Shown piece after piece: positions 1-34,391 of a stretch of DNA of 64,000 bases. This stretch comes from Azolla caroliniana (lineage: Eukaryota; Plantae; Polypodiophyta), in NCBI GenBank assembly GCA_043228905.1, contig JBHGNT010000030.1, positions 273,773-337,772 of the forward strand, given 5' to 3'. Both the position numbers and the translations under genes were made by a program. Position 1 is the first letter of the stretch. Each line of letters begins with the position of its first letter. The notes under the pieces are model-generated. The model was not told where the DNA came from. It saw only the letters and a list, made by a program, of their open reading frames with translations, and did not search any database.

Positions 1-2
1 TT

Positions 3-467
3 GACTCTCGACGCACTGTCCTCCGGTAAGGGTGCCGCGACTGGCCTTACCTTCCGGTCCACAGTCTTGTACTTGGTGCTTACGTGGGCCGTCCGAACTG
101 ACTCGAGCCCTCGACCGAAGTCCGCGATGACTTCGTACATCTCCTCGGAACACACCGGTATCGTCCGGTCTTCGTTAAGGCCTTCTTCGACTACCTTTCC
201 CAGCATTCCCAAGGTGTCGCCGAATGAGACCGCCTCCACGGCCCCGTTGATTTCCTCGTCCGGGCCGAGAACTCCGCACGCTCGAAGTCTCCCCTCCGCC
301 TTTGTCTTCTCTCGGCCGCCGATGCCGACTATCTTACACGCTCCGCTGTCGGAGAACAAAAATTCCCTACCTATGGTACAAGGTTTCTTCGGTTTTATCG
401 TACAGGTGTGGGGTTTTCCCAGGGTGTCCGGACTGTCGCGGCCCCACGCCTTGGCAGCCCTCTCTAA
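3..467 (-). CDS. pol: Start of pol (ORF2) of element A in the -1 frame, partial; absent from the ORF track
   Basis: Manual translation shows no stop from 467 to the edge: LERAAKAWGRDSPDTLGKP...HVSTKYKTVDRKVRPVAAPLPEDSASRV; begins at the G GAT TTT slippery site overlapping the ORF1 stop. Confidence 0.7.
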
Positions 468-2590
468 AAATCCTCTCGGTTATCGGAACCGAGGGAGTCG
501 CAGTTACGCTCATGGTTCGGCCTAACCGTCAAAAACTGGACCGAATGGCGCCCGTCCTGGCTCTTGACCCGCGCATAGGCCGAACCGTTGTCCAGCACCT
601 TGGTCTCCATTCGAGCCGCCGTGATGTACGGCTCTCCCAGTATGACGGGGTGCGATGACGACTCCTGCACGAAGAAGTGCTGGTCTATCTCGACATCGCC
701 GATCTTGACCCGTACATTCGGGCAGGCCCCGTGAAGTTCCTCGGTGGCGCGCGTCGCTGCCCTTATCTTCCACCCGTGCTTGGTGTTGATCGGCCATTTG
801 CCCTTCTTATAGAAGTCCATGGACATCAGGTTGATTTCCGATCCGTGGTCCACCAAAGCTACTACCGGTTCCTGGACATCGCCGATCTTTACCGGGGTTT
901 CCGTGGTCGCTCGGGCCCAGTGTGGCCGCGAATAGTGGCTCTCCGCCCACTCGTCTTCCAGCGCCATGTCGTCCAGGTGCGTCGTCCGCACTTCCACCGG
1001 TCTTTCCGGTTCTGCCTCCGTTGACAGCCTCTTCCGTTTCACCAAGTCCACGATGGAGTCGTGGAACTCCTTCTTGGCGATTCCCAGCACCTCCCGTAGC
1101 GACAGCTCCACCTTGCTGTCGAGAATCCGTTCCTCCAGGACCTTTCGTAAGTCCGTGGTTCTTTCTATCTCCGTCCCCAGACGGTATCCGCCCTTCTGGG
1201 GTTTATCTTGCGTACCGGCCCCGCCGGCTTCGTCCCGTCGTGGCCCGGACCGGGTCTCGTATCGTTGTGAGGGCCCGGTCGTCCCGGGTTTCCCCACCCG
1301 CTTCTCTTCTACTAGAGCCTCGTAGTTCCGGCAAGCGGCTTCCACGAAGCCCGTCTTTTCCTCGACCGGGTCGCTCCACCCGGTCATCTCCCGTACCCGT
1401 TTCTCCGCACGGTCCGATTCCTCCCTTTTAAGCCCTGCACCGGCAAGGCCTTCCAGCATCGTCGGCCAGAATCCGGCTTTGCTTTCCTTTCGGGCCTCGC
1501 CGCCCCCGACTCGAATACCGGCCGACGCCGAGTAGTGGACGGTTTCCGCATGTCGGGCCGCCGCCTCTTCCATCAACCTCTTCATTCCGCCTCGCCCGTC
1601 GTTTCGGTTTAGGGCCCTCCTCGTGTCGTTGGCGTGAACCCGGCCTTCCCATAGGTACACCACCCGGTTCCTCAGCGCCTCTGCGAAATCGCCGCAGTCT
1701 TTCCGGATGTGGCCGACCCCGTCGCACCACATGCACCTGTTCCCTGCCGCCGGCCGTCGGTCACGAGCAGGACCTCCGCCTTCTCTGCGGGCTTGTGCGA
1801 TTTGGAGGTCTTTTATCGCCCTCGTCAGTTCCTCCAACGCAGCCCCTCCAGTCGAGCCTCTGATCACACCGGTCGGAGCTGAACCGGATTCCAGCCACTC
1901 CCGAGTCTCTTCCCTTCGCACCGGCTGCGCCGGCTCGAGTTTCCTCGCCGCGACTGAGCCCGACCCGGTTGCTCTGTCATCCTCCCATTCTCGCCGTTTG
2001 TCGAAACGGCCGCAGGCTCTCTTGACCGCCGCCCAGTCGGCCGTCAGCCCGTCTTCGGTTTCTAGCAGGGCGCCCACGTGACTCCGATCCCTCTCGTCAA
2101 CCGATTTGACGAACAGCAGGACCCGGCTTGTATCCAGGACCATCCTGTCAAGCGCCGAAAGGCGCGCGAAGTTCTCCTCGAACTCCCGGAGGAGAGCCGA
2201 CGCATTCCTTCCTTTCCCGGGAGACTCCACCCACTCCATGAAGCTTCGCTTCGAAAGCCGGAGCACGTCGTCCAGTCCGTATTTTTCCAGGAGCCGACCT
2301 TCGAACTCCTCCCAGGTACGGCTCTCCGCCCGCACCTCGAGCACCTCCGCGTGGATGCTCGGCATCGCCACTCGGGGAAAACCGGCAAGACGCCTGTCTT
2401 CCGGAATGTCCCGCATTAACATTTCCGCACCGTAGGACGCCAGGTACTTCGTGGCATCCTTTCCGGTGAATCGACCGATCGTTCCGACGACCGCCTCAAT
2501 AGCTCTATCGAGGGCGCCGGTGCCCTCGCGCGCGCTTACTATCCGATCCACGGCCGAAGCCATGGCCTCTGCAAGATCCGCCCCTTTCAT
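464..2590 (-). CDS. gag: Gag-aspartic protease polyprotein (ORF1) of element A, 708 aa, intact
   Basis: CCHC zinc knuckle CMWCDGVGHIRKDC; retropepsin-like motifs ALVDHGSEINLM and VILGEPY; ATG about 22 nt downstream of the PBS. Confidence 0.85.
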   Translation of the reverse strand: MKGADLAEAMASAVDRIVSAREGTGALDRAIEAVVGTIGRFTGKDATKYLASYGAEMLMRDIPEDRRLAGFPRVAMPSIHAEVLEVRAESRTWEEFEGRLLEKYGLDDVLRLSKRSFMEWVESPGKGRNASALLREFEENFARLSALDRMVLDTSRVLLFVKSVDERDRSHVGALLETEDGLTADWAAVKRACGRFDKRREWEDDRATGSGSVAARKLEPAQPVRREETREWLESGSAPTGVIRGSTGGAALEELTRAIKDLQIAQARREGGGPARDRRPAAGNRCMWCDGVGHIRKDCGDFAEALRNRVVYLWEGRVHANDTRRALNRNDGRGGMKRLMEEAAARHAETVHYSASAGIRVGGGEARKESKAGFWPTMLEGLAGAGLKREESDRAEKRVREMTGWSDPVEEKTGFVEAACRNYEALVEEKRVGKPGTTGPSQRYETRSGPRRDEAGGAGTQDKPQKGGYRLGTEIERTTDLRKVLEERILDSKVELSLREVLGIAKKEFHDSIVDLVKRKRLSTEAEPERPVEVRTTHLDDMALEDEWAESHYSRPHWARATTETPVKIGDVQEPVVALVDHGSEINLMSMDFYKKGKWPINTKHGWKIRAATRATEELHGACPNVRVKIGDVEIDQHFFVQESSSHPVILGEPYITAARMETKVLDNGSAYARVKSQDGRHSVQFLTVRPNHERNCDSLGSDNREDF

Positions 2591-2612
2591 TTCCTACTCT
2601 TCTGCCGCCTCT

Positions 2613-2630
2613 TTCACGTCGGGTTCACCA
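2613..2630 (-). other. Primer-binding site complementary to the tRNA-Trp 3' end (element A)
   Basis: Minus strand TGGTGAACCCGACGTGAA; + strand TTCACGTCGGGTTCACCA matches the 3' end of plant cytosolic tRNA-Trp(CCA) including CCA, as recalled; lies 3 nt inside the LTR end. Confidence 0.85.
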
Positions 2631-3358
2631 AGATGTCGGGGTTGCTACGCCCTTGCGTGTAGAAAGGAGGAGGGACCACGGGGGTCTCGAACCGAAGAGC
2701 AAGAGAGAGAGGAGTAAGAGAGAGAGACCCGATTACACAGAACCGAAGATCCGATTGCGCAGAACCGACAATTGCACAGGGACACGGCCCAACAAACAGA
2801 GATCACAAATAAACGCCGACGCAGATGGACGCAACAACGAGAGATATGTACTTATGAATGCAAGAAAATAACAGACTAAAGCATTACAACCCACAGTGGG
2901 GCACAAAAAAAAAATAGATACTAACGAAACGAACAGGGCGGCGAACAGCTGCCGACCCCTGTATGTCGCGACGCACAGAAAGGGAAAACAGGTCGGAGGT
3001 GCTGCAGGACGCACTCGGGGCGTTCCACGGAACCGCGCAGGCCTCCTCGAAACCTGCACAGGTACGCGATGGAGCAGAAGACAGAGAGAGAGCAGGAGTG
3101 AGAGAGAAGCTCCGAAATCGGTTCGGCAGCACTTCGTCCTCTCCGCGGGAGATACCCCCACTTCTATTCTTCCTCTTCCTTTTATAGCCCGTCAAGGGGC
3201 CGTTTGGCATTAACTGCATACCAACCGAATCTTCCCACCTAGGATCCTCGTATGTACCTACTTCGTCCTTAGGTACTTCCTGGCGCGCGTGTGTGTGTAG
3301 AGCCGTTTCCCACGCCTTGTTCCTCCGATTCCTCTTGTGGGCGGTTTTCTTCACGACA

Positions 3359-5355
3359 CCGTCCGCCTTCACGCACCGGGTACCCGTTCCGATAGCCTCG
3401 TCCGTTCCGATCTCCGACTCCTCGCCGCCTTCCGTCGTCTCTTTGGTCTTACGTCGATCCGCAACCGCCAAAGTCTCAAGAATAGGTGAGGAGGGTCCCT
3501 CTCGCTCTCGGCCTCCCACCGAGTCGTAATCAGCGTGCCCGGTTAGCTTCCTTCTCGCGCTCACCGGCTCCCACCGGGTGTTGTGGCCCGTTCTCCTCGA
3601 CCTCCAACCGTGCCAACTTAGCCTTCGCCCGGATCGGTCTCGGACGATCGAGTTCCGGTTAGGTCGGCTCCCTTCTGTAATCGTAACCGGCCGGTAGATG
3701 TTTGTCCGAACAAATCCGACCTTGCCAGCTCTTCTTCGGTTCGGGCCCGGTTGACCAGACCCCGCTCCAATGTTCTTCTGCGTCGTCTTCCGGTCATGTC
3801 GGATTATCGACCGGTCCATCTTCCGGTCGGGTCGGTTCCCGACTCTCTCCCCTTTGCCGCTCCCGACCTCTCCATCGATCCTCTCGTATATGCCCGTTCC
3901 GGGCCTCGCGTCCTCATCTTCGTACGTGTTCGCTCCGGGCCACACCTCCTCACGGCCACCGCCCTTCTCTCCGGTCTTATGTTGGCATTCGAGCGCAACC
4001 GTCGTAGTGTCCGGTCTCGGTGTCGAGAGGTCTCGCCTCCGTCCGCTATGACCTTCGTCGTCGTCGTTTCGATCGTCCGCTTTGCCGCCACCTTCCGTCT
4101 CTCCGGTCTCACGTGGGCTCTCGGGGCCGACTGCCGAAGTCTCTAGAATAGGTGTGGGAAAAGTCCCGATACCGTTACTCGTCGATGCCATGATTGTAGC
4201 CACCTTCGTTCGGACGCCGTGGTCCGTGGCTATCTCTTCCTCGTTCTCTTCGTCGCCGTGGTAGGCCGCCTTGCCGCCACCACCACCCGTCGCTCTAGGT
4301 CTCACGCCGGCACTCGGGCCGGCCGTTGGAGCCTCTAGGACCGGTGTGGGTAAGGACCCGGCACCGCCACTCGTCGTGTCAGTAGCCGCTTCCGACCGGT
4401 CGTCGTTGTCCGCGGCTACCCCATCTCCAATTCCGCAAGCCTCGATTACGCTTGCCACCATCTCTCCCATGCCGTCGTCTCGGTTGCCCGCCTTGCCGCC
4501 GCCATCGTCCGTCACTCTAGGTCTCACACCGGCTCTCGGGCCGGATGCCAAAGTCTCTAGGACCGGTGTGTGTAAGGTCGCGGCACCGCCGCTTGTCCGC
4601 TCCTCACTCAATGTTTCGGGCTGCCATGTCCCGAACCCGTAGTTATCGGCCTCCATGGCCGTCCCTTCACCGCAAGGCAAGAGGGTCGCTTGCTCCGCAC
4701 CCTCTCCTATCTCACCGTCGTACGCTCTCCCGGCCTCCATATAGGCCCCGTCTTCTACGTCTAGGGAGGCTTCTTCCTCCGCATCCTCCGATCGCCCCCG
4801 GCCCGTCTCCGTAACAAGCCCTTCTTCGGCTCCGATTTTCGCCTTCACAAGCTCGCATGCCTCTCGTATTAGCGCTTCTAGGTCGAGCTCCTCCGAACCG
4901 TTTTGCGTTGAGCTCTCTTCCGGCGGTAGTGCGTACTCACTCGCCGCTCTCTCTTCTCTGCCGCTCGCGGGCCACGTTGTTGCCGACCGCTCCCCATCGG
5001 GTTGCCGGCATACCCACTCCGGTTTCGCGTATCCGCACGCTTCCAATAGGGCTACCTCCAAGGACACCCACGTCTCGTGAGCTTCTCGTAGCTCCTTGAC
5101 CTCCTTGTGCACCGATGCGGCCGCCACTCGAGGAAAATACTCTAGTTGCATCTCCTCGTCCACGCCCCCTTTCGCCATCTCGGCCTCGTACGCCTCCAAG
5201 AACCTCGGGACATCGTCCCCGTTGAATCGGCCGACTCGATCGACCACCCTTTCGACGACTTGTTGAGCCGCATCTCGCTTCGCCATTTTCCGTCCGGCTT
5301 CCATCACGATTTTTGCCATCATCTCCTCGAAGTCCAAGTCTTCTTCCATCTCCAT
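3359..5355 (-). CDS. Gag N-terminal domain followed by a long acidic/Gly-rich repeat region (element B ORF, cut by element A)
   Basis: VGRFNGDDVPRFLEAYEAEM...YFPRVAAASVHKEVKELREAHETW aligns with element A IGRFTGKDATKYLASYGAEM...GFPRVAMPSIHAEVLEVRAESRTW; then repeated TP(V/I)LE(T/A)xxxGP motifs. Confidence 0.6.
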
Positions 5356-5933
5356 GCTCCCTTGCCGCCCTTCACGTCGGGTTCACCAAAGATGTCGCGT
5401 TGTTACGCGCGTGCGTGTAGAAGGGGCGGGACCGCGGGGGTCTTGGACTAGGGAGTGGAGGAGAAAGAATAGGACATGATATGGAGGCTTAGTTCAAGAG
5501 GAGAAGAGGAAAGAATAAGACCACGACATCGAAGGAGGGATCAGCAGAGGCAAGATGCTCAACAAGCTATATTAAAACAACGAATGGTTACAACAATGGT
5601 GGCCGCCATGGCCGCACCAAAATGACTATCCGAAAACCCTAAAGGGAAACCCCAGGAGAAACCCTAATCGAAACCCTAACCCTAAAACGAAATGGGAAGA
5701 GGGAGAACCCTAGACTAAGTGGTATACCTTACTCGCACAAAATAGGCAACCCCTTCATAAGTGACCCCTCCCTTCCTTTTATAGCCCAAGGAGGGAGGGA
5801 CCTTACAATGTGGGACAAAAATTTCCCCTCTCTTTCTATACACCATATCCTAGTATACATGTGCACATGTTGCACAACATCGACTTGCCCCTTCCACCCT
5901 GGTTTCCGCCTATGGACGAAAATCTTCACGACA
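3359..5933 (-). mobile_element. tRNA-Trp-primed family, element B (5' LTR 5393-5933, PBS 5371-5388, atypical gag-derived ORF), interrupted by element A
   Basis: Same LTR termini, TATA near 5777-5787 and identical 18-nt PBS; inserted into the element C gag at CCGT (5934-5937). Confidence 0.85.
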
Positions 5934-6350
5934 CCGTACTTCTCGAGGAGCCGCAACTCGAACTCCTCCCAAGTCTGGCATCCGGCCAACACCTCGAGCA
6001 CCTCCGCGTGGATGCTCGGCGTCACCACCTGAGGGAATCCGGACAGCCGCCTGTCCACCGGGATGTCCCTCATGATCAATTCGGCCCGGTAAGCCTCCAA
6101 ATAACTTGTGGCATCTTACCCTCCGAACCGGCCTATAGTGCCGACGATCGATTCAACGGCTCTGTCAAGGGTACCCGTCCCCTCACGAGCGCTTACCAGC
6201 CGGCCGACGGCTACCGCCATTGCCTCCACTAGCTCTGATCCCCTCATCTTTTGACTCCTTTGCCGCCTGTTCACGTCGGGTTCACCAAATATGTCGCATT
6301 GTTACACGCGTGCGTGTAGAAAGAGGCGGGACCACAGGGGTCTCGGACCA

Positions 6351-6404
<54 letters not shown>

Positions 6405-6969
6405 TGCAAGTACGCAGAGAGAGGTTAAGAGCAAGCAAAATAGGAGTCCGATTACTATAGTCAATAGCTTACAACCGGCAACCCGGCAATGGACCCGACA
6501 CGGGTCCTACTCACGCACACCGACGACAGCCACACGACTCGAAGAAACAAACGGGGGAGAGGGGAAGGAGAGAGACTCTGCTGGAAGCACACGAGCTGTC
6601 CACGAAGCAGAGGCAGCGAACTCTCGACACCCGCAGAGAACGACGAATTGAGGAGAGAGAGCCCGACACTCGGTTCTGCAGCAGCACTTCGTCCTCGCCA
6701 ACGCGTGATCCCCTTTCCTCCTTCTTTCCTCTCCTTAAATAGTTCCCAAAAGGGCGGTGCCCTTTTTCCCTAGTCAAATCGCCTTATTCCTTGTCCCTTC
6801 TGACAGAGATACGCACAATCCCTTAATAAATGTGTACTACTTGGTATTTACATCAGCTGATCCATTTATGAATCAATATCAAAATATCAATTCATGCGTC
6901 CATCCATGTAAGAGCCGGTTCATGCGCCTTTTTGTCCGATTCCGCCTATGGCCGGTTTTCTTCACGACA
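5934..6969 (-). mobile_element. tRNA-Trp-primed family, element C (5' LTR 6292-6969, PBS 6270-6287, gag start 6247 to 5934), interrupted by element B
   Basis: gag MRGSELVEAMAVAVGRLVSAREGTGTLDRAVE...LLEKYG closely resembles element A gag and has one in-frame stop; LTR contains an (AG)n tract; inserted into a chromovirus protease region at CCGT (6970-6973). Confidence 0.85.
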
Positions 6970-7414
6970 CCGTGTAGGTGTGATCACTTATGGTGGGTTG
7001 GATTCCCCATATCTGAACCAAACGATCATTCACAAAATTGTGTGAGCTTCCCGAATCAAATAAAAATTGTACGGGAGATCCATTGATATACCTGTTTGCA
7101 CGTAGTAAATCATTGGGACCCAATACATAGTGAGGGAAAGAACATTGACAATTACTTAAATGATGTGTATAGACCTGAAGGACCTTAGGAATCTGACCTT
7201 TATGGTCTGCAACTTTAGTTTTGTTGTCGTGCTCTTTTCGTTGGAGCTTTCGACATCGATCTTTTGTATGACCTTTCTTTTTGCAGAATACGCAAAAAGG
7301 ATGTTGTTGCTTACAATCGTGATCCATGAATTCATTGGGTGTCTTACATTTCCCAACGAATTGCGACTGCTTAGTCCCGGGTGCTTTGTTGGGTTTATTA
7401 TGGTCCTTCTTCGA
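6970..7414 (-). pseudogene. Chromovirus gag (zinc knuckle)/protease fragment, same family as 26659-39046
   Basis: [19 protein letters not shown]...[14 protein letters not shown]...SDHTYT is nearly identical to 34890-35335 in reverse orientation. Confidence 0.9.
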
Positions 7415-8001
7415 ATGTATCTAGATATCTTAGTCGTGTAATAAAACCTAACTGAGAGAAGTGCAAGAAGTGTTCCTTATAGTACAACATTTTAGATGGG
7501 AGTGGCTCTCGTGGGGTGATCCATTTATATCATGTGTAAATTTGCCATATTTCTTGGCGTATCACTTTATTACAATCTTCATGAGATATTAGAGTTTGGT
7601 TAGTCCCATGGTTGTACTTAAGGGGGGGTAGGTTATTTTTTAGCGGCAAGCTCAACCGGATCCGGATTGGCTGAATAAGCCTGAGCCGGATCGGCATTTG
7701 GAAGGATGAGCCAGATCGGTGAGCCGGTGAGCCGGTTAGCCGGATCCATCAGTAACCGGAAGCCTAGTAGCAGCCTAGACTACTAGGAAGTTAATGTCTC
7801 ATAGTTAGTGTCAGACGCTTGTGTGAGCATTGAAGTACACCGTACTTCTGTCAGTCCGGATGGACTTGTATAAAAGTGTTCACTAAACACATACGATGTA
7901 CAGAGTGTTACAGATTGAGTATTATTTTTTAATAGAGTTTCTGTGTGCTCTCTCTCACTCTCTGTCTCTCCCGTGTACTGTGTATATCCTAAGCTCTCCA
8001 T

Positions 8002-9814
<1,813 letters not shown>

Positions 9815-9950
9815 TCCATTAAACCTGCGTTTCTGTGTTCTGTTTTCTATTGCTTCTACACAACGTATTCTTTTACATGGTATCAGAGCGCGAGGGTTGA
9901 GAACCTCTGCAGCCAACATAGCTTGAAAAAAAAAACCAACCAAGAGGAAC

Positions 9951-12900
9951 ATGAAAAACAAAATGGATAGAGGCATGGCTAGCTCGCTTCCTACCGAGAA
10001 GCTCGACAGAAACAACTACGCATCTTGGTCCTACAAGATGCACCAGTACCTGCTCGGGCACGGTTACTGGAGCTATGTCGACGGAGCAAATGACACAACA
10101 CCCGAATCGACACACAGAGATTTCCCGGTGTGGGAACAGTCGGCAAGCAGAGTATTGTACTGCTTCGCATCTTGTGTGGGCGAACAACTTCTGAGCTATA
10201 TTCGGGATGTGAAAACGCCAAAAGATGCTTGGGGAAATTTGAAGAAGATTTTCGCCACAAGCACCATAGCGAGGAAGCTTCAACTCTGACAAGAGCTGAG
10301 CAACTTATGACAACGCAATTTGTCAGTGGCTTATTACACCTCGAAGATCAAAGAGATATGCGACTCCTTAGCCTCTATTGATGTGAACGTCGAGGAAGGC
10401 GAGATGGTGCAAATCTGTCTCGGGGGACTGGCATCAAAGTTCGGAGCATTCCGAACTGCTATGTGTACACGGGAGAATACGCCGTCATTTTTCGACTTAT
10501 AGTCGATGCTTCTTGTGGAGGAGAACCACGTTGGTGCGTCAACAAGTGCACCCACCAACATCCGGATGTTGTACACGAAGGTGGATCGGCCCCGTGGGCG
10601 TGGTGGACGAGGCGGGTCGGCTCGCAATGGTAGCGGCCGGCAAGAGCATGAACGAAGGCAAAGAGAAAGTGCCGACAATAGTTCCGGACCCTCCACAAGC
10701 AGGGGGAGTCAAGGCGGCGCCGGAGGCCGGCAAGCAAAGGTTGATACAGAATGCTAGTACTGTGGCAAAAAGGGCCACAGAGAAAGCGAGTGTTGGAAGA
10801 AACGCGCCGATTCGGACAAATCTGGATCCGGCAAGGCCGGCAGAGAGAACCAGCAATACTCACACTACGCAGAAGGATCGGGGGGATCCAAAACCAGAAA
10901 AGCCAGTAAAGGGCTAGCCTTGGTGATGAAACACGAGGCTAACTCGATGAAGAAGACCACTTCCGAATCGAAGGAAGTGTGGTACATTGATTCCGGTGCG
11001 TCGAATCACATGACGAGCCACAAAGAGTGGTTCTCCTTCTTGGAGAAACCCGAACAACCACGAGTTGTCGAAACCGGAGACGACACTCCACACCCAATCG
11101 TGCATGTCGAAGAAGTCCCTTTGAGCCACATCGGACAGAGGGGGAAGTTGATGAACGTTGTCGTGTTGTTACGCGCGTGTGTATAGAACGAGGCAGGACC
11201 ACGGGGGTCTTGGACTGAGGAATAACCGAACAGGAGTAGGAGCAAGAAAGACAATGACCGTGCTTCCACACACACACGCAGATACACAGAAACCGCAACT
11301 AAATGAAACAATGGAAACAAGACGAATGCATATATGTATGTATATATTCTAATGAAAAAGGGTTACAACCGGCAAGCCGGTGAGCAACAAATCTCCTACG
11401 CCTACGCACACACACACAGAAGAGCGAGATGGAGACTTTGCCGGAAGCACTCAGGCGTTCCGCGAAGCAGAGTCAGCCTCCCAAAAACCTGCACAGAGCA
11501 AATACAGAGAAAGACAGAGGAGAAGAGCTTGGTCCTAGTCCGACAGCACTTTGTCCTCGACAAAAGCGATCCCTTTTACGGTTCCTCTCCCTCTCTTTTA
11601 TAGCCCAAGGAGGGAAGCCGTTACAACTTGTTACATCATCTTTATTCCATGTCCTTTAGGACAGAGATATGCCTCGATTTCCTACCTATCAAATCCGTGC
11701 GACCTAAGATATTCACATCAGCCGACTTGTACCTAAATATGTACATTACAACAAAACTTGTGCCCGCGTGTAAGGGCCGGTTCGCGCGCATCATTCTCCA
11801 ATTCCGCCGAGGGACGGTTTTCTCCACGACAACATATTACACATTCCGACCATCACGAAGAACCTGGTGTCGATTGGACAGATAGTCGACCAGGGGATGC
11901 AAGTGCGGTTTACGCACCTCGGGTGCTTCATCGAGGAAGAGGGCCAGATTATTGCGCAAGGGCGCAAAGACGGGAGGATGTTCATCCTCGACGCCAATGA
12001 CGTAGGCACCACTTTGTTCGCCAAAGGTCAGAAGATTGAATTGGATATTGATCTCTGGCACAAGCGGATTGGCCACATCAATTACCGGAGGCTTCAAGAC
12101 CTGCAAACGAAACAAGTAGTTTCCGGTTTGCCGAAGTTCAGTGCCCGGAAGGCCCAAATATGTGAAGCTTGCCAACTCGGGAAGCAACACCGGCTTCCAT
12201 TCCCCACCGAACGAAACCGGAGTCGTAACAAGCTCGACCTTATTCATTCGGATGTATGGGGACCGGCACAAAACGTTAGTCTTGGCGGGAGTCGATATTT
12301 CGTCTCCTTCATCGACGACCACAGCCGGCATACATGGATCTACCTCATTGAGCGGAAGAGTGAAGTCTTCGAGTGTTTCTGGAACCTGCAAAGCCTAGTT
12401 GAACAAGAAACAGAGAGGAAGATCAAGTGTCTGCGGTTGGATGGCAGAAAAGAATATTTTTCCGGCCAATTCAACAGTTATCTACAGCAAAAAGGAATTC
12501 GAAGAGAGTTCAGCTGCAAATACACACCGGAGCAAAACGGTGTGGCCGAAAGGAAGAACCGGTCGATTGTCGACGCGGCAAGGGCAATGCTGGAGGAGAA
12601 GAGCATGCCCCATTTCTACTGGGCCGAGGCGGTCCAGATGGCCGTCTATATCCAAAACCGTATCGGTGACAAGGTGTCCACGCACGAGCTATGTCCGCGC
12701 ACGAGCTATATTTCGGACGCGAGCCGAATTTGAGACACCTTCGGATATTCGGTAGCATTGCATATGTGCATGTGCGGGATGAGAAGATGAGGAAGTTGGA
12801 TGCAAAGTCGGAGAAATGCATCCTGGTCGGTTACTCGCATGAGCAAAAGGGGTATAAATGTTATAACCCCCAGACGAAGCAGGTCCGAGTTAGCTAAGAT

Positions 12901-17719: not shown

Positions 17720-20700
17720 GTATGATGCAAGTAGGGTTCCCCTTTGTATTTTCCCTCTTCCCATAGTGAACAGTTTGTAGTTCTATGAACTCCCATGGTT
17801 TTCCCCTATTAGGATTTCCATGTTAAAATTCCTTGTCTTTGTATTTGTGTTCTGTTTTTTGTCGGTTTAAATCTTTGCAACTCTCATACGTGAGTCTAGA
17901 ACCGGTTGTGGCCAGCTTCAATCTTAACAAACTGGTATCAGACTGATGGAAGACTCATTTGGCAGCATGTTCAAACTTACCAACTCCAACTATTCTATGT
18001 GGAAGTCGAAGACAAGGGATATGTTGGTATGCAAAGATCGTTGGTTGCCGGTACAATATGGGAATACCAAGCCCGACAAGATCGATGCATCGACTTGGGA
18101 AATCATGCATCTAAAGGCCGCAACATATATAAGGTGTTTTATAGACATGAGTCTATACAACAACTTTGATGATGAGAACAAGGCGATGTCCTCTAGGAGA
18201 AGATCGACATTATGTTTGAGAACAAAAATGTTGTTAATAGAGTCTCAGTGTTTCGGAAAACAGTAAGACTCTAGTATCAAGATGGCTCCAGCATGGCGGC
18301 GCATCTGAATGTCTTCCAAGGGCTCATCAACCAAACCACCTCTCTAGAAGTACCTCTAGTTGGCGAGATACTAGCACTACTACTGTTGGGATCCCTTCTA
18401 GAAAGTTCGGAGACACTTGTTGTCACACTGTGACTTGTCGGACCAGAAGAAAAGCATTTATTAACGGGAACTACAACGCTCCTTATGCACAACACTCAGC
18501 CACAACCGAGCTTAGAACCATACACAGAAAATGGGAAATAAAGAGTGCACGACACGAAGAAGAGAAGAGTACACAGGGTGTTTACGTGGAAAACCCAAAC
18601 AAAGGAAAAAAAACCACGGCAACCCACAGGCTGCAAACTATCACTATGTTAGAATGTACAACAATGAGTTCACGAAGGCAACGACCTCGTGCTCACGATC
18701 TTTGCCACAAGCGGCGGTTACAACTGAGGCAACGACCTCTTCCTTTCTCTCACTCTCTCTGTACACAGTTACGCGCTCTAATCTCGCGCAGACAAGAATA
18801 ACAACGACCTCATCAAAAGGTTTTCCCTAAGTCATATTTATACTAATATGACTTTTCGGCTATTTACAAATACAGCCATGATGGACTCTCAGAAAACATA
18901 TTTACAAATATGTCTCTTCATCCGGTGAGCACTCCTCACCGGGTCTGCACCATCCAGCTCTCCGTAGCCGGGTACTCCTCATCCGGTACTCACCGGGTCT
19001 GCACCATCCGGCTCTCCGTAGTCGGGTACTCCTCATCCGGTTCTCACCGGGTCTACACCATCTGGCTCTCCGTAGCCGGGTACTCCTCATCCGGTTCTCA
19101 CCAGGTTTGCACCATCCGGCTCTCCGTAGCCGGGTACTCGTCATACGGTTTCGGCCTCGGCCGAGTATGTTCATCAGCATTGTTCTTCTCTCTTCCCATC
19201 CGGAGGGACCTGTCTCCCAACAAACTCCCCCTTCACTCCGGCATGGGGTGTCTTACTAGTCCGATCCTCTTCCGGCATGCATCCAGCTTGTCGGGTATCA
19301 ACACTTTGGTCAGCATATCTGACCCGTTCTCGGCCGTGTGGATCTTCGTCAGCGCGACCTCCTGGTCATCTACTCTTTCCCGGATCCAGTGATACCTTCG
19401 TTGGATATGCTTCGTCCGGGAATGGTAGGCTGCATTCTTAGCAAGGTGGATGGCACTTTGACTGTCGCAATAGAGCCGGTATTCATTTTGCCGGATACTG
19501 AGCTCTCCGATGAAGTCCTTCATCCATAATATTTCCTTGTCGGCTTCCACAACCGCCATGTACTCCGCCTCTGTGGTTGACAAAGCAACCGTCTTCTGCA
19601 GCCTCGACTGCCACGAAACAGCTCCCCCTGCATATGTCATTACATATCCGGATGTAGACTGGCTGGTATCCACATCAGCCGACATGTCCGAATCGGTGAA
19701 ACCGTCAAGTTGAGGTTTTCCGGAGCCGAATCAGAGACACATATTTGAAGTGCCCTTCAAATACCGGAGTATCCATTTGACCGCGTTCCAGTGCTCCTTG
19801 CCGGGATTGCTCATAAACCGGCTCACCACTCCGACTGCGTAGCCTATATCTGGTCGAGTACACACCATTGCGTACATCAAGCTCCCTACAGCAGAGGCAT
19901 ATGGAATCTTCATCATATCCGCCTTCTCTACTTTCGTCTTCGGGCTTTGCTTACCGGATAGCCTGCAGTTTGCCGGAAGTGTCGATCCGACCGGTTTTGC
20001 ATCTGACATGTTGAACCGGTGAAGCACCTTTGTCACGTACTTCTCCTGTGACAGCCATAATTGCTTCACTGACCGGTTCCGGATAATATGCATCCCCAAC
20101 ATCTGTCTTGCCGAACCCAAGTCTTTCATTGAGAAGGTCCGGTTGAGAGCCTTCTTCAGCATTTGTATTTTGACTTGGTCTCGTCCGACGATCAATATGT
20201 CATCCACTTACAGAAGGAGTATCAGGAAGTCGCCTCCTTCGAACTTCTTCACAAACACGCAATGATCGGCCTGCGTCTTGTGGTACCCTTGATCGGCCAT
20301 GAAGGAATCGAACTTCCGGTAGCATTGCCGGGGGGCCTGTTTCAACCCGTAGAGGCTCTTCTTCAACCGGCAAACCAGGTGCTCCTTCCCTTTCTCCACG
20401 AATCCTTCCGGTTGCTGCATGTAGATCTCCTCTTCGAGGTCGCCGTGAAGGAATGTCGTCTTCACGTCTAGCTGCTCTACCTCGAGGTCCATGCTTGCCG
20501 CTATACTCAGTACCGTCCGGATGGAGGTCATCTTTACTACCGGGGCAAATATCTCGTCAAAGTCCACGCCCTTCTTCTGTTGGATCCCCTTGACCACGAT
20601 CCTGGCTTTGTATCTCGGGGGGTTGCCGGCATCTCCCGGTTTCAACTTGTACACCCACTTGTTTCGGAGTGCCCGCTTTCCTTTCGGCAACTCCACCAAT

Positions 20701-22855: not shown

Positions 22856-25800
22856 AGGAGTAGTGTTGGGAGACAGGTCCCTCCGGATGGGAAGGGAGAA
22901 GAACAGTGCCGATGAACAAACTCGGCCGAGGCCGATAGGCCGAGGTGAAGACCGGATAAGAAGTACCCGCCTACGGAGAGCCGGATGATACAGACCCGGT
23001 GAAGACCGGATGAGGAGTACCCGGCTACGGAGAGCCGGATGATACAGACCCGGTGAAGACCGGATGAGGAGTATCGGCTACGGAGAGCCGGATGATACAG
23101 ACCCAGTGAAGACCGGATGAGGAGTACCCGACTACGGAGAGCCAGATGATACAGACCCGGTGAAGACCGGATGAGGAGTACCCGGCTACGGAGAGCCGGA
23201 TGGTGCAGACCTAGTATGAACCGGATCAAGAGACATATTCGTAAATATGTTTTCTGAGAGTTCATCGAGGCTATATTTGTAAATAGCCGAAAAGTCCTCT
23301 TAGTATAAATATGACTTAGGGCAAACTTTTAGTGGTGGTTGTCATTTTTTGTTTTGCACGAGATTAGTGTGTGTAACTATACAGAGAGAGAGAGAGAGAG
23401 AGAAAGAGGTCGTTGCCTCTGTTGTAACCGCCGCCTATGGCAAAGATCTGTGAGCACGAGGTCGTTGCCTCAGTGAACTCACTGTTGTACATTCTAACAT
23501 AGTGACAGTTTGCAGCCTGTGGGCTGCCGTGGTTTTTCCCCTAGTTTGGGGTTTTCCACGTAAACCTCCTGTGTATCTTCCTCCTCTTTGTGTCGTGTTT
23601 TATTTCCCATTTTTCTGTGTATCATTCTAAGCTCGGTTGTGGCTGAGCGTTGTGCATAAGGAACATTGGGTTCCCGTCAAGTGGTATCAGAGCAAAACGA
23701 CACAGAAAATGGACAAATCGTTTGGCGGCATGTTCAAGCTCACCGGCTCCAACTATTCAATGTGGAAGTCGAAGATGAGAGACATGCTCATGGTTAAAGA
23801 TCTTTGGCTACCGGTTCAGTTCAGGGACAAGAGACCGGACAAGATCGACGCCACAATATGGGAGGTGATGCACATGAAGACAACGGCGTACATACGGTGC
23901 TTCATCGACATGAGCCTATACAACAACTTCAATGAAGAGAGCAAGGCTCATGAGCTCTGAGAGAAGATCGGCATAATGTTTCAAAACAAAAATGTTGTCA
24001 ATCAGGTGTCGGTATTCCGGAAGCTAGTAAGACTCCGGTACCAAGATGGCTCCAGCATGGTGGAGCACATGAATGCCTTCCAGGGGCTGATCCACCAGGC
24101 AACTTCATTGGAAGTACCTCTCGCCGATGAGGTACTAGCGCTACTCCTGCTCGGTTCCCTCCCGGATAGCTGGGAGACGTTGGTTGTCACTTTGGGCAAC
24201 GCCGGGCCGGAAGGAAAGCGGTTATCCCTAGCAAGAGTAAAGTCGAGCTTGTTAGATGAGGAGGCGCGTCAGAAAGATAAGGATACGAGCTCCGACTCCA
24301 AAGCGCTCATTACCGAATCGGAACGTGGAAGACATAGAAACCGTAGTCCCCAGAACCGGGAGAAGTCGGGGACACGGTCAAAGTCAAAGGGGAGGCCTAC
24401 TTGCTTCTATTGCGGCAAGTCGGGACACTTCCAGAAGAATTGTCGGCACTTCCGTAAAGACAAGGAAACCGACGGTGCCGATTCGAAGCGGACCCCGGAC
24501 CGGAACGGAAAAGACCAGAGGGGGCCGGACCGGAAGGGAACGACGGCAATCGCGGCAAGTGAAGAAGAGTTGATGCTCATCACCGAGGAGAGTGAGATAA
24601 ACCTTGCCAGCGACGAGATGACCTAGGTGGTAGACTCCGGAGCGTCGTTCCACCTTACCCCGGACCGGAAATGCTTCCCATCCTACTCAGCCGGTGACCA
24701 CGGCTGTGTCCGGATGGGGAATGAAGGTACGTGCCAAATTGTCGGCATAGGAGACGTGTGGCTGTCAACACCAACCAAATGCAAGTTGCTGTTGAAGGAT
24801 GTCTGACACGTTCCAGAGGTTCGTCTGAACCTGATAACAGCCGGTCGGCTAGATGATGAAGGCTACACGAGTAGCATTCAAAACGGGGTCATGAAGTTCA
24901 GCAAAGGGAGCCTGATTGTGGCTCGGGCCTGGAATGTCAACACGTTGTACCTGATGAATGCCCGGTTATGTCCGGAAGAAGTGAACGTGGCATCCGACAC
25001 TGCCGGTGAGCTGTGGCACAAGAGGTTGTGTCATATGAGCGAGAAGGGGATGAAGAGGCTTGTAGACGACAACCTCATTCCAGTGAAGAACGTGCACTTA
25101 CAGAAGTGCACTGATTGTCTGGCCGGTAAGCAGAACCGGACCTCCTTCCGACCAAGGCCACCGATGAGACGTAATGCACCACTGGAGTTGGTGCATACGG
25201 ATGTGTGTCAAGTAGACACGAAGTCACATGCCGAAGCGCAGTACTTCGTGACATTCATAGATGACCACAGCCGGAAGTTGTGGGCCACACCGTTGATGTC
25301 GAAGGATCATGTGTTATCCATCTTCAAAGAGCTCCACGCGAGAGTGGAAAGAGAAACCGGCCGGAAGCTGAAGGCGGTTCAAGCAGATAACGGAGGAGAG
25401 TACCGGGGGCAGTTCGAGGAGTACTGCTGCTCGAAGGGAATCCGGCTCGAATTTACCATGCCGAAGACGCCGAAACTAAACGGACTGGCCGAGAGGATGA
25501 ACCGGACCATAATGGAGAGGGTCCGGAGTATGCTAGCGCATGCAAAACTACCCAAGAAGTTTTGGGTTGAGGCATTGTCGACAGCGACATACGTGATAAA
25601 CAGATCACCCTCAATACCCTTGGACGGAGACACGCCACAGAGAGTGTGGACCGGTAAGGAAGTGTCCTACGAGCATTTGAAGGTGTTCAGGTGTCTCGCG
25701 TACATGCATGTAGCAAAGGACCGGAGAGGAAAGTTAGATCCAAAGACCCGGCCATGCATATTCCTTGGTTACGGTGACGATGAGTTCGGCTACCGAGTGT

Positions 25801-28800
25801 GGGACCCGGTCGACAAGAAGGTACTCCGGAGTCGAGATATTATCTTCATGGAGAACAAGACGCTCGCCGACTGGGAGTCGAAGAAGAAGATAATGAACTC
25901 CGAGTCGACCGGTAAGGATTAGCAGACCCAACTGGCGAGAGACCGGTTAGCACTCGAAGAACCAGCCGGATACGATGAGGATACCGAACCGGCAGAAGAA
26001 GAAGTAGAGGAAGCTGAGACCGGAACCGGCCTAGACCCCGAATCGGATTCGGATGAAGAGCAAATGGAGGAGCCGGCTACCGAAGCCCAAAGACGGAGAT
26101 ATCCTCTCAGAGAGAGAAGGGCCCCCCGGAGATTTCTGGATGTAGAGCATGTTCTGCTGACCGATGAGGGGGAGCCGGAAAGCTTCGAAGAAGCGAAGGA
26201 TAACACCCACAGCCGAAAATGGTTAAGTGCCATGCAGGACGAGATGGATTCCCTGCATGAGAACCATACGTACGAATTGGTGGAGTTGCCGAAAGGAAAG
26301 CGGGCACTCCGAAACAAGTGGGTGTACAAGTTGAAACCGGGAGATGCCGGCAAAACCCCGAGATACAAAGCCAGGATCGTGGTGAAGGGGTTCCAGCAGA
26401 AGAAGGGCGTGGACTTCGACGAGATATTTGCCGCGGTAGTAAAGATGACCTCCATCCGGACGGTGCTGAGTATAGCAGCAAGCATGGACCTCGAGGTAGA
26501 GCAGCTAGACGTGAAGACGACATTCCTTCACGGTGACCTCGAAGAAGAGATATACATGCAGCAACCGGAAGGTTTCGTGGAGAAAGGGAAGGAGCACCTG
26601 GTATGCCGGTTGAAGAAGAGCTTGTACGGACTGAAGTAGGCTCCCCGACAATGGTACCTATTACGGGCATGACCATATAATATCCCGTGGTAAGAATTTA
26701 CCGTAGTATTCTATACACGTGGATAAGTGTGAGGGTTAAATGAGAGTGTAAAGAAGGGGAGGATTACTTTTAATCCTCGGGATTGAGACAACCCATTAGG
26801 TCAAGTGTGAACTTGCCTGGGGGCCTTGGGTATCGCTATAAATAAGAGGCCTAGCTACCCTCATTTGAGCATCTTTTGACTACATCGAGACTCTGCTCGT
26901 GTGGTGGGTCAACTCTCGTAGCGAGCGCGCCAGCACCAGGTACGACTCGACGCCACGGCGGTGGTATGGGACGCCGATCGAGGCTCGAGTCCGTCTCGAT
27001 CCCTTCGCTCGGGGGTGGTCGGGTGGATCGGCACCCTTCTTTCTCTTTCTCCTTTCTATCTTTCATTCTTTATCCTTATCTTATGCTTACTTTAGTACCT
27101 AGATCTATAATATTTGGTATCAGATTTTTGTACTAATGTTTCTTTGTTTTTCATTTGTCTTTTGATTGATGATGATCGATCGTTGTGCGGTTGGCCTTTA
27201 TCCAGACAACGATCAACAAAGAACTTCGGTAACTCTTTCCATAATTTTTCTTTCTATTCTCTCTTCTCCCATCTAATCATGTGTTTAGTTTATATGTAAT
27301 TTTTTTCATTAAGTCAAGGATGTTGTAGTGGTCTTTAATTGATTATCTAAAACGTTTACATATGTGCACGAGGTCAATACCTCGTTTGACATATTAATAA
27401 TATGTGATGAGTGTCGTATGCGTACGAGGTTAATACCTCAATTACGTATTACGATCACAAACATATGTTACGTTTGCGTATGAGTTTAATACCTTGATTT
27501 GTTGTAAACGATATGCGTTTGGTCTCGTATGCGTAAGAGGTCAATACCTCCATTGCGTATTACGATGATCTCTTATTTGTGGATGTTCCGTGTGCGTAGA
27601 GGTATATACCTCGATTACGTATCTCGATCACATCATTTGTGGCTATTTAATATAACGATATGTTTAATATAGGCATATGTGGTCACATATATACGTATTT
27701 GATCATATATATGTGATAAGTAAACATATGTGTATATTCGTTATTACGTGATTATATCGAAAGTTGTCCTTGTCGGGAAAAGGATGTTGGTGGCCGTCCT
27801 CACATTTTTGTGAGAATGGCGTTGTCACCATCCCTTTTTCAACATTTTTTTATTGTTGATAACCCCGTTGACGACCTCGATTTCGTTACGTAAAGAAACG
27901 CGAATAGCCAAAATGATGTTGAGTACGTAGGGCTTGACCCACTTCAAGTGAGGTCGCTCCAATGACGCACGTATCCAACATCCCTCCCTCGTTACATGGA
28001 TACGATGCCACCATGAGCTCGTTCTTACGAGAGGCATTCGTAATGACGTGACCATGTGATGGCCCACGTGAGCCTACTACGAAACGAGGGCTCATTTGGC
28101 TTGACCATTAGGTTGCCCTTTGGCATATGCCATCGTAATTACGAGACTTGAGGTTAGGTAACGTACCAACATAGTTTTGGTAAATGAGGGCGAAATAAGG
28201 ACCTTGACATATATGTTCTTTTAAAAAAACATATATGATCAATTGCCTCGCATATCTCTTATAGGCATCAAACATTAAGCTTACTTGGTTGGCTCAAGTG
28301 TTTAATGTATTTGTTCTCGAGGTCTCGAGTTCAAATATGACCAAGACCATACAACATCCTTGATACATATGACTATAACACATGTTTAGACTTAAGGTCT
28401 AAGTGCACCTCGGGGTCCTCGTAATAGGACTTAAAGAGCCGAAACCACTTATGTGGGCACCGAAACATAGTTTATTGTTAACATTTTTTTTCGTGTATAA
28501 ACTATTCATGACGCGAACATACATGGTTGAGCCTCGGGGAGCCACCATGAAAAAATTGATATAGAGATCAGGGAAAGACATTTATTTGTCACCCCCATGG
28601 TTTTTAAAACACCTTTGTGTTACCATAGTAACCTGATCTTGAACCTCATCTCATACGTCTAGAGGGGTATTGACGTGAGATAATGATATCAATTAATGCT
28701 CGCCCATGATATGTTTACATCACGACATGATGTTATGACTATATCTCTGACCTTATCCTATTTCTTTTCCAGAAATAATCTTTAATGGCTCAAATTAACG

Positions 28801-29008
28801 ACCCGATGTCATCCGCTCAAGCGGAAGGAACTCAAGGGAATCCTCCTTGACAAATGTCCACTGAGATGTATTTGGCACAAATAACCCAATACCTTAGTTT
28901 CACCGCTCAACAGATGACCGAACTTCGGCAATCTCAGAGTGCTCTTGAGGCACGTGTCATTAGTCTACAACGTGAGACTAATAGACCTGATGAGCGACAA
29001 GGTGAACC

Positions 29009-32000: not shown

Positions 32001-34391
32001 GAAACTGATACCGGAACCGGCCCCGATCCCGAAATGGACTCGGATGAAGAGGAAACAGAGGAGCCGGTTACCAAAGCTCCGGAACGGAGATATCCTCTAA
32101 GAGAGAGAAGGCCCCCCCGGAGATTTCCGAAACCAGAGCACGTGTTGCTAACCGACGAGGGGGAGCCGGAGAGTTTTGAAGAAGCAAAGCTCGACACCCA
32201 TAGCCGCAGGTGGTTAAGTGCCATGCAGGAGGAGATGGATTCCCTGCATGAGAACCACACATATGAACTTGTGGAGTTGCCGAAAGGAAAGCGGGCACTT
32301 CGAAACAAGTGGGTGTTCAAGCTGAAACCGGGAGATGCCGGAAACCCCCCGAGATACAAAGCCAGGATCGTGGTGAAGGGGTTCCAGCAGAAGAAGGTCG
32401 TCGACTTCGATGAGATATTTGCCCCGGTAGTGAAGATGACCTCCATCCGGACGGTGCTGAGCATAGCGGCAAGCATGGACCTCGAGGTAGAACAGATGGA
32501 CGTGAAGACGGCATTCCTTCACGGTGACCTCGAAGAAGAGATCTACATGCAGCAACCGGAAGGATTCGAGAAGAAAGGGAAGGAGCACCTGGTATGCCGG
32601 TTGAAGAAGAGCCTTTACGGACTGAAGCAGGCTCCCCGGTAATGGTACCGGAAGTTCGACTCTTTCATGACCGACGAAGGGTACCACAAAACGCAGTCCG
32701 ACCACTGCATGTTTGTGAAGAAGTTCGAAGGAGGAGACTTCCTAATACTCCTCCTGTACGTGGACGACATGTTGATCGTCTGACGGGACCAGGTCAAGAT
32801 ACGGATGCTGAAGAAAGCGCTTCACCGAACCTTCTCAATGAAGGACCTGGGTCCGGCGAGGCAAATACTAGGGATGCACATCATCCGGGACCGGAGGAAG
32901 AAGCAGTTGTGGCTGTCACAGGAGAAGTACGTGACAAAGGTGCTTCAACGGTTCAACATGTTGGACGCAAGACCGGTCGGGTCAACCCTCCCGGCAAACT
33001 GCAAGTTGTCCAGCAAGCAAAGCCCCAAGACAAAGGCTGAGAAGGAGGACATGATGAAAGTACCATATGCCTCTGCCGTCGGAAGCTTGATGTACGCAAT
33101 GGTGTGTACAAGACCGGACATAGGATATGCAGTCGGAGTGGTGAGCCGGTACATGAGCAATCCCGGCAAAGAGCACTGGAACGCGGTCAAGTGGATACTC
33201 CGATACGTGAAGGGCACGGCAAACGTGTGCCTCCGATTCGGCTCCGGTAAGCCCGAACTCGACGGCTTTACTGATTCGGATATGTCGGCTGATGCAGATA
33301 CCAGCCGGTCCACATCAGGGTATGTGATCACGTATGCAGGGGGAGCCGTGTCGTGGCAGTCGAGGCTGCAGAAGACGGTTGCGTTGTCAACCACGGAGGC
33401 GGAGTACATGGCGGCTGTTGAAGCCGGCAAGGAAATGATATGGATGAAGGACTTCATTAGAGAGCTCGGTATCCGGCAGGAGGAGTACCGACTCTACTGC
33501 GACAGTCAGAGTGCCATCCACCTTGCGAAGAACGCGGCCTATCACTCCCGGACGAAGCACATCCAGCGAAGATATCACTGGATCCGGGAAAGGATAGAAG
33601 ACCAGGAGTTCGTGCTGACGAAGATCCACACGGACGAGAACGGGTCAGATATGCTGACCAAAGTGCTCACACCCGACAAGCTTGAAGCGTGCCGGAAGAG
33701 GATCGGATTGGAGAGACATCCCATGCCGAAGTGAAGGGGGAGTTTGTTGGGATTACGGTCCCTCCAGATGGGATGGTCGGATGTCCGGAGCCGGATGATG
33801 AAGACCCCGGCTACGGAGCCGGATGACGAAGACCCCGGCTACGGAGCCGAATGACGAAGACCCCGGCTACGGAGCCGGATGATGAAGGTACCCGGAGAGA
33901 GATCCGGATGCGGGGACATATTTGTGAATATGTTTGCCAAGGGCCCTTGAGGCTATATTTGTGAATAGCCCGAAAGTCATATGTGTATAAATATGACTTA
34001 GGGCAAACTGTTTAGGGTTGTTGGCTGTATGTTGTTGCCTATGGTGTATTGCCACTCATATATGTGTGCAAGAGTGAAGAGAGCAGCCGAGAGAGAGAGA
34101 GAGAGAGAGAGAGTGAGAGAGTGACGAAGAGGTCGTTGCCTCTGTGTATTACCGCCGCCTGTGGCGAAGACAGTGAGCTCAAGGTTGTTGCCTTGTAGCT
34201 TCACTACTGTACATCTCTGTTTATAGTGATAGTTGGAGTTTGAGGACTCCCGTGGTTTTTTCCCATTTAGGGTTTTCCACGTAAAACATCCTGTGTACTC
34301 TCCTCTCTATTGTCTTCGTGCATTTTGTATTTCCTGTTTTCGGAAGAGTTGATCCTATTCCTTGGTTGTGGCTGAGCACTGTTTTTTAACA
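29009..34391 (+). mobile_element. Ty1/copia element Y, youngest layer of the nest, nearly intact
   Basis: LTRs 29009-29629 and 33745-34391 nearly identical, TSD GAACC (29004-29008 / 34392-34396), PBS 29633-29644, PPT about 33731-33744. Confidence 0.96.
29661..33734 (+). pseudogene. Copia Y gag-pol, single frame with two nonsense changes (about 32640 and 32781)
   Basis: 993-aa ORF plus 309-aa ORF in the same frame; all copia domains present. Confidence 0.92.

What the first reader, a model, noticed from the sequence alone, without database searches (positions are those of the whole stretch)
1..11835. tRNA-Trp-primed LTR retrotransposon family with apparent sequence-specific targeting of (C/A)CGT
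Seen: four independent insertions (A, B, C and the solo LTR) are flanked on the + strand by CCGT (3359), CCGT (5934), CCGT (6970) and ACGT/ACAT (11155/11832), all with the element on the minus strand. The flank is host DNA in at least three cases: the intact chromovirus at about 35333 has the same ACGG, element A gag has CCGT at the homologous KYG codons, and excising the solo LTR restores Copia W. The solo LTR gives a 4-bp TSD, whereas the other resolved elements here have 5-bp TSDs. Known: most plant LTR elements make 5-bp TSDs with weak sequence preference. Inference: an integrase with oriented preference for a CpG-centred tetramer, which could steer it into CpG-rich or methylated transposon DNA. 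Only four sites are visible.
Basis: partly seen in the sequence, partly recalled or inferred. Interest (0 to 1): 0.85.

Follow-up and report, generated by a model that had tools for sequence, protein, structure and literature searches.

The report
CpG-targeting Phygy-like retrotransposons, already described
These nested jumping genes land almost always on a four-letter site with CG in its middle, facing either way, and are likely members of the moss 'Phygy' lineage, for which this CG-centred target was already published in 2019.

Summary
Four LTRs (TGTCG...CGACA) lie on the minus strand with the flanks stated. The flanks are host DNA, and the solo LTR has a 4-bp TSD: uninterrupted Copia copies skip 677 = 673 + 4 bases in 4 of 4 runs. 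In metagenome contigs, 72 of 80 host-flanked LTR starts follow NCGN (background 3.8%) and 7 more follow NCAN/NTGN. The target is symmetric, not oriented: ACGG 12 versus CCGT 11 on the element strand, consensus ACGT, with TCGA never used (0 seen, 9.8 expected). A relative 93% identical to element A has a Gypsy Pol without chromodomain or archaeal RNase H. Neumann et al. 2019 list Phygy as 4-bp TSD (100%, NCGN), tRNA-Trp primer (81%), no extra domain. So the sequence preference is known for this lineage; membership is likely but could not be tested by RT phylogeny. Small additions: a refined palindromic motif, (C)-V-CG-B, and a Pol-less subfamily (element B type) with the same termini and target. 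The oriented-preference idea is not supported; steering by methylation is untested. Five of 6 contigs with host DNA on both sides of one LTR had unequal flanks, probably assembly joins.

The parts
1..479 (-). Element A: start of the Pol frame, cut by the window end; -1 frame relative to gag-PR
   Evidence: 87% identical to L065 Pol N-terminus
464..2590 (-). Element A gag-protease ORF (708 aa; CCHC knuckle, DUF4100, DHGS protease motif)
   Evidence: weak aspartyl-protease hits on L065 counterpart
2613..2630 (-). PBS of element A, 18 nt (tRNA-Trp type; Trp assignment recalled)
   Evidence: complement equals the CCA-ended small RNA 'miR894' in PMC5846777 Table 3
2634..3358 (-). 5' LTR of element A, 725 bp
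3359..3362 (.). Target tetramer CCGT of A, inside element B's ORF
   Evidence: L025 has TCGT here
3359..5382 (-). Element B ORF, interrupted by A: about 105 aa gag-like N-terminus, then acidic low-complexity repeats; B type appears Pol-less
   Evidence: 39% to A gag over 105 aa, E 6e-15; L023 and L025 reach the PPT without Pol
5371..5388 (-). PBS of element B
5393..5933 (-). 5' LTR of element B, 541 bp
5934..5937 (.). Target tetramer CCGT of B, inside gag of element C
5934..6269 (-). 5' part of element C gag, interrupted by B
   Evidence: 75% DNA identity to A 2277-2727 region
6270..6287 (-). PBS of element C
6292..6969 (-). 5' LTR of element C, 678 bp
6970..6973 (.). Target tetramer CCGT of C, inside a chromovirus fragment (6970-7415, 95% like 34889-35336)
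11155..11158 (.). TSD copy ACGT of the solo LTR, in Copia W pol
11159..11831 (-). Solo LTR, 673 bp
11832..11835 (.). TSD copy ACAT (ACGT with a G>A change, as CpG deamination gives)

Best explanation
A, B, C and the solo LTR are Gypsy LTR retrotransposons without a chromodomain, likely of the bryophyte Phygy lineage, that insert at a palindromic CpG-centred 4-bp site in either orientation; their integrase is inferred to make that choice by cutting both strands 4 bases apart around the CpG. Shown: the 4-bp TSD; NCGN at 90% of sites; a symmetric profile (A>C>G at the first base, T>G>C at the last, C enriched one base upstream); Pol layout RT-RH-INT with no chromodomain and no second RNase H in a 93%-identical relative. 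Inferred: reverse transcription is primed by host tRNA-Trp on the 18-nt PBS; a two-fold symmetric intasome reads C and G of the CpG and disfavours T at the first and A at the last base; B-type elements, lacking Pol, are moved in trans by A-type Pol; rare NCAN/NTGN flanks are mostly NCGN sites deaminated after insertion. The nest reads, oldest first: chromovirus, then C in it, B in C gag, A in B; the solo LTR arose by LTR-LTR recombination of a fourth copy in Copia W.
For: Flanks: 120 metagenome loci from a pattern holding only LTR letters. After removing 37 3' LTRs preceded by the PPT, 2 duplicates and L060 (no LTR similarity), 72 of 80 are NCGN, 7 NCAN/NTGN, 1 other; background NCGN 3.8%. Right ends: 12 of 14 NCGN, with CG at +2/+3 while left ends have it at -3/-2, which fixes the TSD at 4. 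Direct pairs: window solo LTR (677 = 673 + 4 skip, 4 of 4 runs) and L064 ACGG/ACGG. Symmetry. Enrichment within NCGN: ACGT 4.4x, ACGG/CCGT 4.0x, ACGC/GCGT 2.9x; TCGA 0 vs 9.8, ACGA/TCGT 0 vs 12.3 expected. Pol: L065 is 93% identical to A over 1607 bp, Pol 1172 aa with RVT_1, RT_RNaseH, Integrase_H2C2, rve and no Chromo or second RNase H family, ending 72 bp before the 3' LTR. Literature: Phygy n=186, 4 bp (100%) (NCGN), tRNA-Trp 81%, no extra domain (PMC6317226 supplement 3). Palindromic target motifs are the rule for LTR elements in Drosophila (PMC3276498).
Against: No labelled Phygy sequence could be compared (reference fasta too large to read), so clade membership rests on features. Estimated length of A is about 7.2 kb (coordinates of two different copies), just under the 7.66-9.97 kb range given for Phygy. 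Five of 6 contigs with host DNA on both sides of one LTR have unequal flanks; for L077 the left flank is Copia gag and the right does not continue it, which points to assembly joins or inter-element recombination, but this was not shown for all five. Right flanks show ACGG 4, CCGT 0 and no C at +1 in 14 (versus 19 of 80 at -4 on the left), so a weak orientation bias is not excluded. The Trp identity of the primer is recalled; no tRNA gene was found to confirm it. The 119 loci come from 11 assemblies with neighbouring accession numbers, probably one campaign, so they are not independent hosts.
Confidence: 0.88

Rival explanations
1. Same target behaviour, but the family is an unnamed sister lineage of Phygy (or close to TatI without aRH) spread across bryophytes, not Phygy proper.
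For: No direct comparison with Phygy references was possible. Estimated size is slightly below the Phygy range. Named relatives are from the liverwort Riccia sorocarpa at 66-69% RT-RH identity, and none named from Physcomitrium appeared among the 120 listed. TatI also has 4-bp TSD and tRNA-Trp.
Against: TSD length, NCGN motif, PBS type, no extra domain and compact internal region all match the Phygy row; Neumann names Phygy as the only lineage with a TSD sequence preference. TatI has aRH in 100%, and none was found here. P. patens TE proteins may simply be absent from gene annotations (inference).
Confidence: 0.08
2. One reading: the integrase has an oriented preference, ACG(G/T) on the element strand.
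For: 3 of 3 full elements in the window have ACGG on their own strand; from the measured frequencies three ACGG or three CCGT has p about 0.006, any three alike p about 0.03 (post hoc). Right flanks ACGG 4, CCGT 0.
Against: Left flanks ACGG 12 vs CCGT 11, ACGC 7 vs GCGT 9; ACGG+ACGT 35 vs mirror 34; -4 versus complement of -1 p=0.52. No orientation bias relative to host frames (11 vs 7).
Confidence: 0.03
3. The NCGN flank is part of the element's own termini or a product of co-mobilised nested structures, not a host target.
For: Phygy-in-Tcn1 nested pairs recur at like positions in P. patens (PMC6911290, passage).
Against: 3' LTR starts are preceded by the PPT, not NCGN (37 loci). The tetramer varies over 17 forms, matches uninterrupted host paralogs at all four window sites (one with a mismatch), and the 80 flanks are distinct sequences.
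Confidence: 0.01

Closest known systems
Phygy clade, Ty3/gypsy non-chromovirus of Physcomitrella patens (Neumann et al. 2019, PMC6317226; seen: passages, section 9, supplement 3; supplements 1 and 3 of the publisher's numbering too large to read)
   Same: 4-bp TSD, NCGN preference, Trp-type PBS, no chromodomain, no aRH, coding region filling almost the whole internal part.
   Different: A type about 7.2 kb by estimate (Phygy 7.66-9.97 kb). The motif is resolved here as palindromic V-CG-B with ACGT consensus and C at -5. A Pol-less subfamily is present. Host species not determined.
TatI clade (same paper, supplement 3)
   Same: 4-bp TSD and tRNA-Trp PBS (75% of 4 elements).
   Different: TatI has aRH in 100%; none found in L065 Pol. 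No NCGN preference is listed for it.
Selgy clade (same paper)
   Same: Compact non-chromovirus with 4-bp TSD.
   Different: tRNA-Ala PBS, about 5 kb, no sequence preference listed.
Drosophila gypsy-group elements (Linheiro and Bergman 2012, PMC3276498; seen: passages)
   Same: 4-bp TSD and palindromic target motifs that extend beyond the TSD.
   Different: Their motifs are mostly AT-rich; here the centre is CpG.

Membership tests
Phygy | RT/RH/INT cluster in the Phygy clade of non-chromovirus Ty3/gypsy | not testable with these tools
   Reference fasta too large to read; no labelled Phygy protein among hits. Indirect: RT-RH 27% to the window's chromovirus, 66-69% to Riccia sorocarpa proteins.
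Phygy | No chromodomain | tested here: met
   No Chromo hit in L065 Pol, P0052, P0188, P0189 or P0023/25/26; the window's chromovirus does hit it. Tested on relatives, since A's Pol runs off the window.
Phygy | No archaeal RNase H | tested here: met
   Only one RNase H stretch (528-657) in L065 Pol at max E 10 (HMMER filters drop most above 0.1).
Phygy | 4-bp TSD | tested here: met
   solo LTR; L064; CG offsets. 5 of 6 both-flank contigs mismatch, read as assembly joins.
Phygy | NCGN insertion preference | tested here: met
   72 of 80 left and 12 of 14 right flanks; background 3.8%.
Phygy | PBS for tRNA-Trp | tested here: inconclusive
   18-nt PBS is the exact complement of a CCA-ended plant small RNA mapped to gypsy elements. 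That this is the 3' end of tRNA-Trp is recalled; no tRNA gene with it was found.
Phygy | Short element, polyprotein fills the internal part, no extra ORF | tested here: met
   ATG 23 bp after the PBS in A; Pol stop 72 bp before the 3' LTR in L065.
Phygy | Observed size 7.66-9.97 kb (descriptive range) | tested here: inconclusive
   About 7.2 kb estimated from coordinates of two different copies; no full-length copy held.
Phygy | Host is Physcomitrella patens (clade first described as species-specific) | not tested
   Host not determined. Phygy domains are also reported in the liverwort Apopellia (PMC12885004, passage).
TatI | aRH domain | tested here: not met
Tcn1 chromovirus | Chromodomain, 5-bp TSD, self-priming | tested here: not met

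The most novel reading that the evidence does not exclude
The integrase reads methylated CpG itself within a C-A-CG-T-G palindrome, giving a chromodomain-free route into silenced transposon DNA, and a Pol-less partner subfamily (about half of the LTRs sampled) rides on it. Allowed by: near-obligate CpG centre with no TA-centred site in 80, CA/TG at 7 of 8 exceptions, and at least 29 of 77 flanks in TE-like DNA. Not distinguished from plain sequence read-out plus survival of insertions in TE DNA.
Probability: 0.1. Interest if true: 0.6.

Novelty: new member of a known kind. Interest (0 to 1): 0.2.

Why it matters
The core claim is in print: Phygy is named as the one plant LTR lineage with a TSD sequence preference (NCGN). 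What this adds is modest: a quantified, symmetric motif, and a likely non-autonomous subfamily. A plant integrase with a 90% CpG-centred target is still a clean system for asking how integrases read DNA and whether methylation changes the choice.

Tried and rejected
No whole genome is held, so the far ends of A, B and C could not be read. The LTR pattern found nothing in genome contigs. A tRNA gene bearing the PBS complement was not found in viral contigs, genome contigs, the window or the 120 loci, and a paper search on miR894/tRNA-Trp listed nothing that settles it (listing only). Searches of the paper library: 'NCGN'+'retrotransposon' gave only Neumann 2019 and an unrelated paper; 'DUF4100' gave 0; moss/gypsy/CpG/insertion site preference/4 bp TSD, 4 of 5 terms, gave 0. 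I saw no finer Phygy motif in these, but the two large supplements of Neumann 2019 could not be read and list TSD sequences per element. PMC7466625 (passages) gave no TSD data and no link of RLG2/RLG3 to Phygy. The ESM Atlas gave only generic Gypsy Pol clusters. Cluster look-up gave no organism names. The second read laying showed B-type internal sequence is covered throughout in 4 runs but gave only low-agreement loose ends at 3358, so no further TSD data. An apparent same-orientation nesting bias vanished when frames were scored properly (16 vs 10 of 94 flanks examined; 11 vs 7 within 60 bp). No earlier findings of this scan matched.

Full report
Observation. The first 12 kb is a nest of LTR retrotransposons. 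Four LTRs of one family lie on the minus strand: A 2634-3358, B 5393-5933, C 6292-6969 and a solo LTR 11159-11831. They share termini TGTCG...CGACA and are 70-73% alike. A, B and C are 5' LTRs, each followed by the same 18-nt PBS. That PBS is the exact complement of a CCA-ended small RNA listed as miR894 and mapped to gypsy elements (PMC5846777, passages). That it is the 3' end of tRNA-Trp is recalled, not shown here.

The flanks are host DNA. The intact chromovirus has ACGG at 35331-35334. Uninterrupted gag copies have CCGT at B's site, and the B-type copy L025 has TCGT at A's site. For the solo LTR only a 4-bp duplication fits. Contigs of uninterrupted Copia copies skip 677 bases, 673 of LTR plus 4, in 4 of 4 runs, and mostly read G at 11834, so ACAT is a changed ACGT. 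Four other elements in the window have 5-bp TSDs. No genome is held, so the far ends of A, B and C were not seen.

More sites. A pattern made only of LTR letters found 120 metagenome loci (of about 280 estimated). Of these, 37 are 3' LTRs preceded by the polypurine tract, 2 are duplicates and 1 (L060) has no LTR similarity. Of the remaining 80, 72 follow NCGN, 7 follow NCAN or NTGN and 1 neither; background NCGN in the same flanks is 3.8%. Of 31 right-end matches, 8 were followed by the PBS, 8 were false matches to another LTR motif and 1 had no flank. Of the 14 left, 12 start with NCGN. CG sits at -3/-2 on the left and +2/+3 on the right, which gives a 4-bp TSD without needing pairs. L064, a 93-bp deleted solo LTR, has ACGG on both sides. 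The other 5 of 6 contigs with host DNA on both sides have unequal flanks. For L077 the left flank is Copia gag and the right does not continue it; I read these as short-read joins across a repeated LTR or inter-element recombinants, which is not proven. These loci come from 11 assemblies with neighbouring accession numbers, so they likely sample one or few hosts.

The motif is symmetric. First base A47 C19 G13 T1; complement of the last base 49, 20, 8, 3 (p=0.52). ACGG 12 versus CCGT 11; ACGC 7 versus GCGT 9. Within NCGN, ACGT is 4.4x enriched, ACGG/CCGT 4.0x and ACGC/GCGT 2.9x; TCGA (0 vs 9.8) and ACGA/TCGT (0 vs 12.3) are avoided. C is enriched one base upstream (36 of 80, p=2e-6). All three LTR subtypes share the preference (29 of 29, 35 of 41, 8 of 10). 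No site is TA-centred, so a flexible pyrimidine-purine step alone does not explain it; CA/TG make up 7 of 8 exceptions against 14% expected, as deamination of methylated CpG would give. There is no orientation bias relative to host TE frames (11 vs 7). The three CCGT in the window partly reflect supply (host B has 27 CCGT and 1 ACGG on +). A weak bias is not excluded: right flanks are ACGG 4, CCGT 0.

Anatomy. A encodes a 708-aa gag-protease (DUF4100) and then, in the -1 frame, the start of Pol. L065 is 93% identical to A over 1607 bp and carries the whole Pol: RT, RNase H and integrase, no chromodomain, no second RNase H, stop 72 bp before the 3' LTR. A is about 7.2 kb by estimate. Its RT-RH is 27% identical to the window's chromovirus and 66-69% to Riccia sorocarpa proteins, the only organism named among the 120 hits listed. 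B has only about 105 gag-like residues (39% to A), then low-complexity repeats with no Pfam hit. Its relatives L023 and L025 run to the PPT with no Pol match, so B is likely a non-autonomous subfamily; 41 of 80 sampled LTR starts carry its terminal variant, though LTR type and internal type need not go together.

Mechanism. Shown: TSD length, target motif, symmetry, domain layout. Inferred from established integrase biology: a two-fold symmetric intasome cuts 4 bases apart about the CpG, and palindromic target motifs are the rule for LTR elements (PMC3276498, passages). Whether methylation guides it is untested. At least 29 of 77 flanks resemble window TEs and flank CpG o/e is 0.81 against 0.44 in the gene-bearing 47-64 kb, but survival of insertions in TE DNA would give the same.

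What is known. Neumann et al. [quoted passage not shown] Jedlicka et al. 2019 (PMC6911290, passages) report GC-rich centres in 4-bp TSDs and Phygy nested in Tcn1, as C is here in a chromovirus. TatI shares the 4-bp TSD and Trp primer but has aRH, not found here. The clade test by RT phylogeny could not be run, so 'works like Phygy' is shown and 'is Phygy' is likely.

Verdict. A real feature, already described for this lineage. New member of a known kind; interest 0.2. The additions are the refined palindromic motif, the removal of the oriented reading and the Pol-less subfamily. The unread large supplements of Neumann 2019 hold per-element TSDs and may already contain the finer motif.

Noticed in passing
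window 3359-5392; L023 9916-12123; L025 3876-5332: B-type elements carry a long open frame of gag N-terminus plus acidic repeats with no Pfam match and no Pol before the PPT. The frame stays open over 670+ codons, and the region is covered throughout in 4 runs.
   Followed up: partly
L078 (element strand 1070-1150): An LTR end, then ACGT, then another LTR start: head-to-tail copies separated by one target tetramer, as a second insertion into an existing TSD would give. An assembly join is also possible.
   Followed up: no
L064 (element strand 913-1006): A 93-bp internally deleted solo LTR with both termini and a perfect ACGG/ACGG duplication.
   Followed up: partly
window 2613-2630, 5371-5388, 6270-6287: The PBS is fully complementary to the abundant plant small RNA annotated as miR894, probably a tRNA 3' fragment that could silence these elements.
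   Followed up: no
window 26659-39046: Chromovirus with an open 1417-codon frame, 99.6% identical LTRs and a GTACC TSD, but both outer termini read TA instead of TG/CA; a Copia (29009-34391, TSD GAACC) is nested in it.
   Followed up: partly
window 18881-19206, 22877-23253, 40176-40607, 41921-42300: Copia LTRs that contain arrays of a 54-bp tandem repeat.
   Followed up: no
window 47934-49455: Exons of a mitochondrial carrier family host gene right beside the TE nest.
   Followed up: no
P0188-P0284: Many Riccia sorocarpa annotated proteins have RT-RH relatives of this family, several with DUF4100, so the lineage extends to liverworts; their TSDs were not examined.
   Followed up: no
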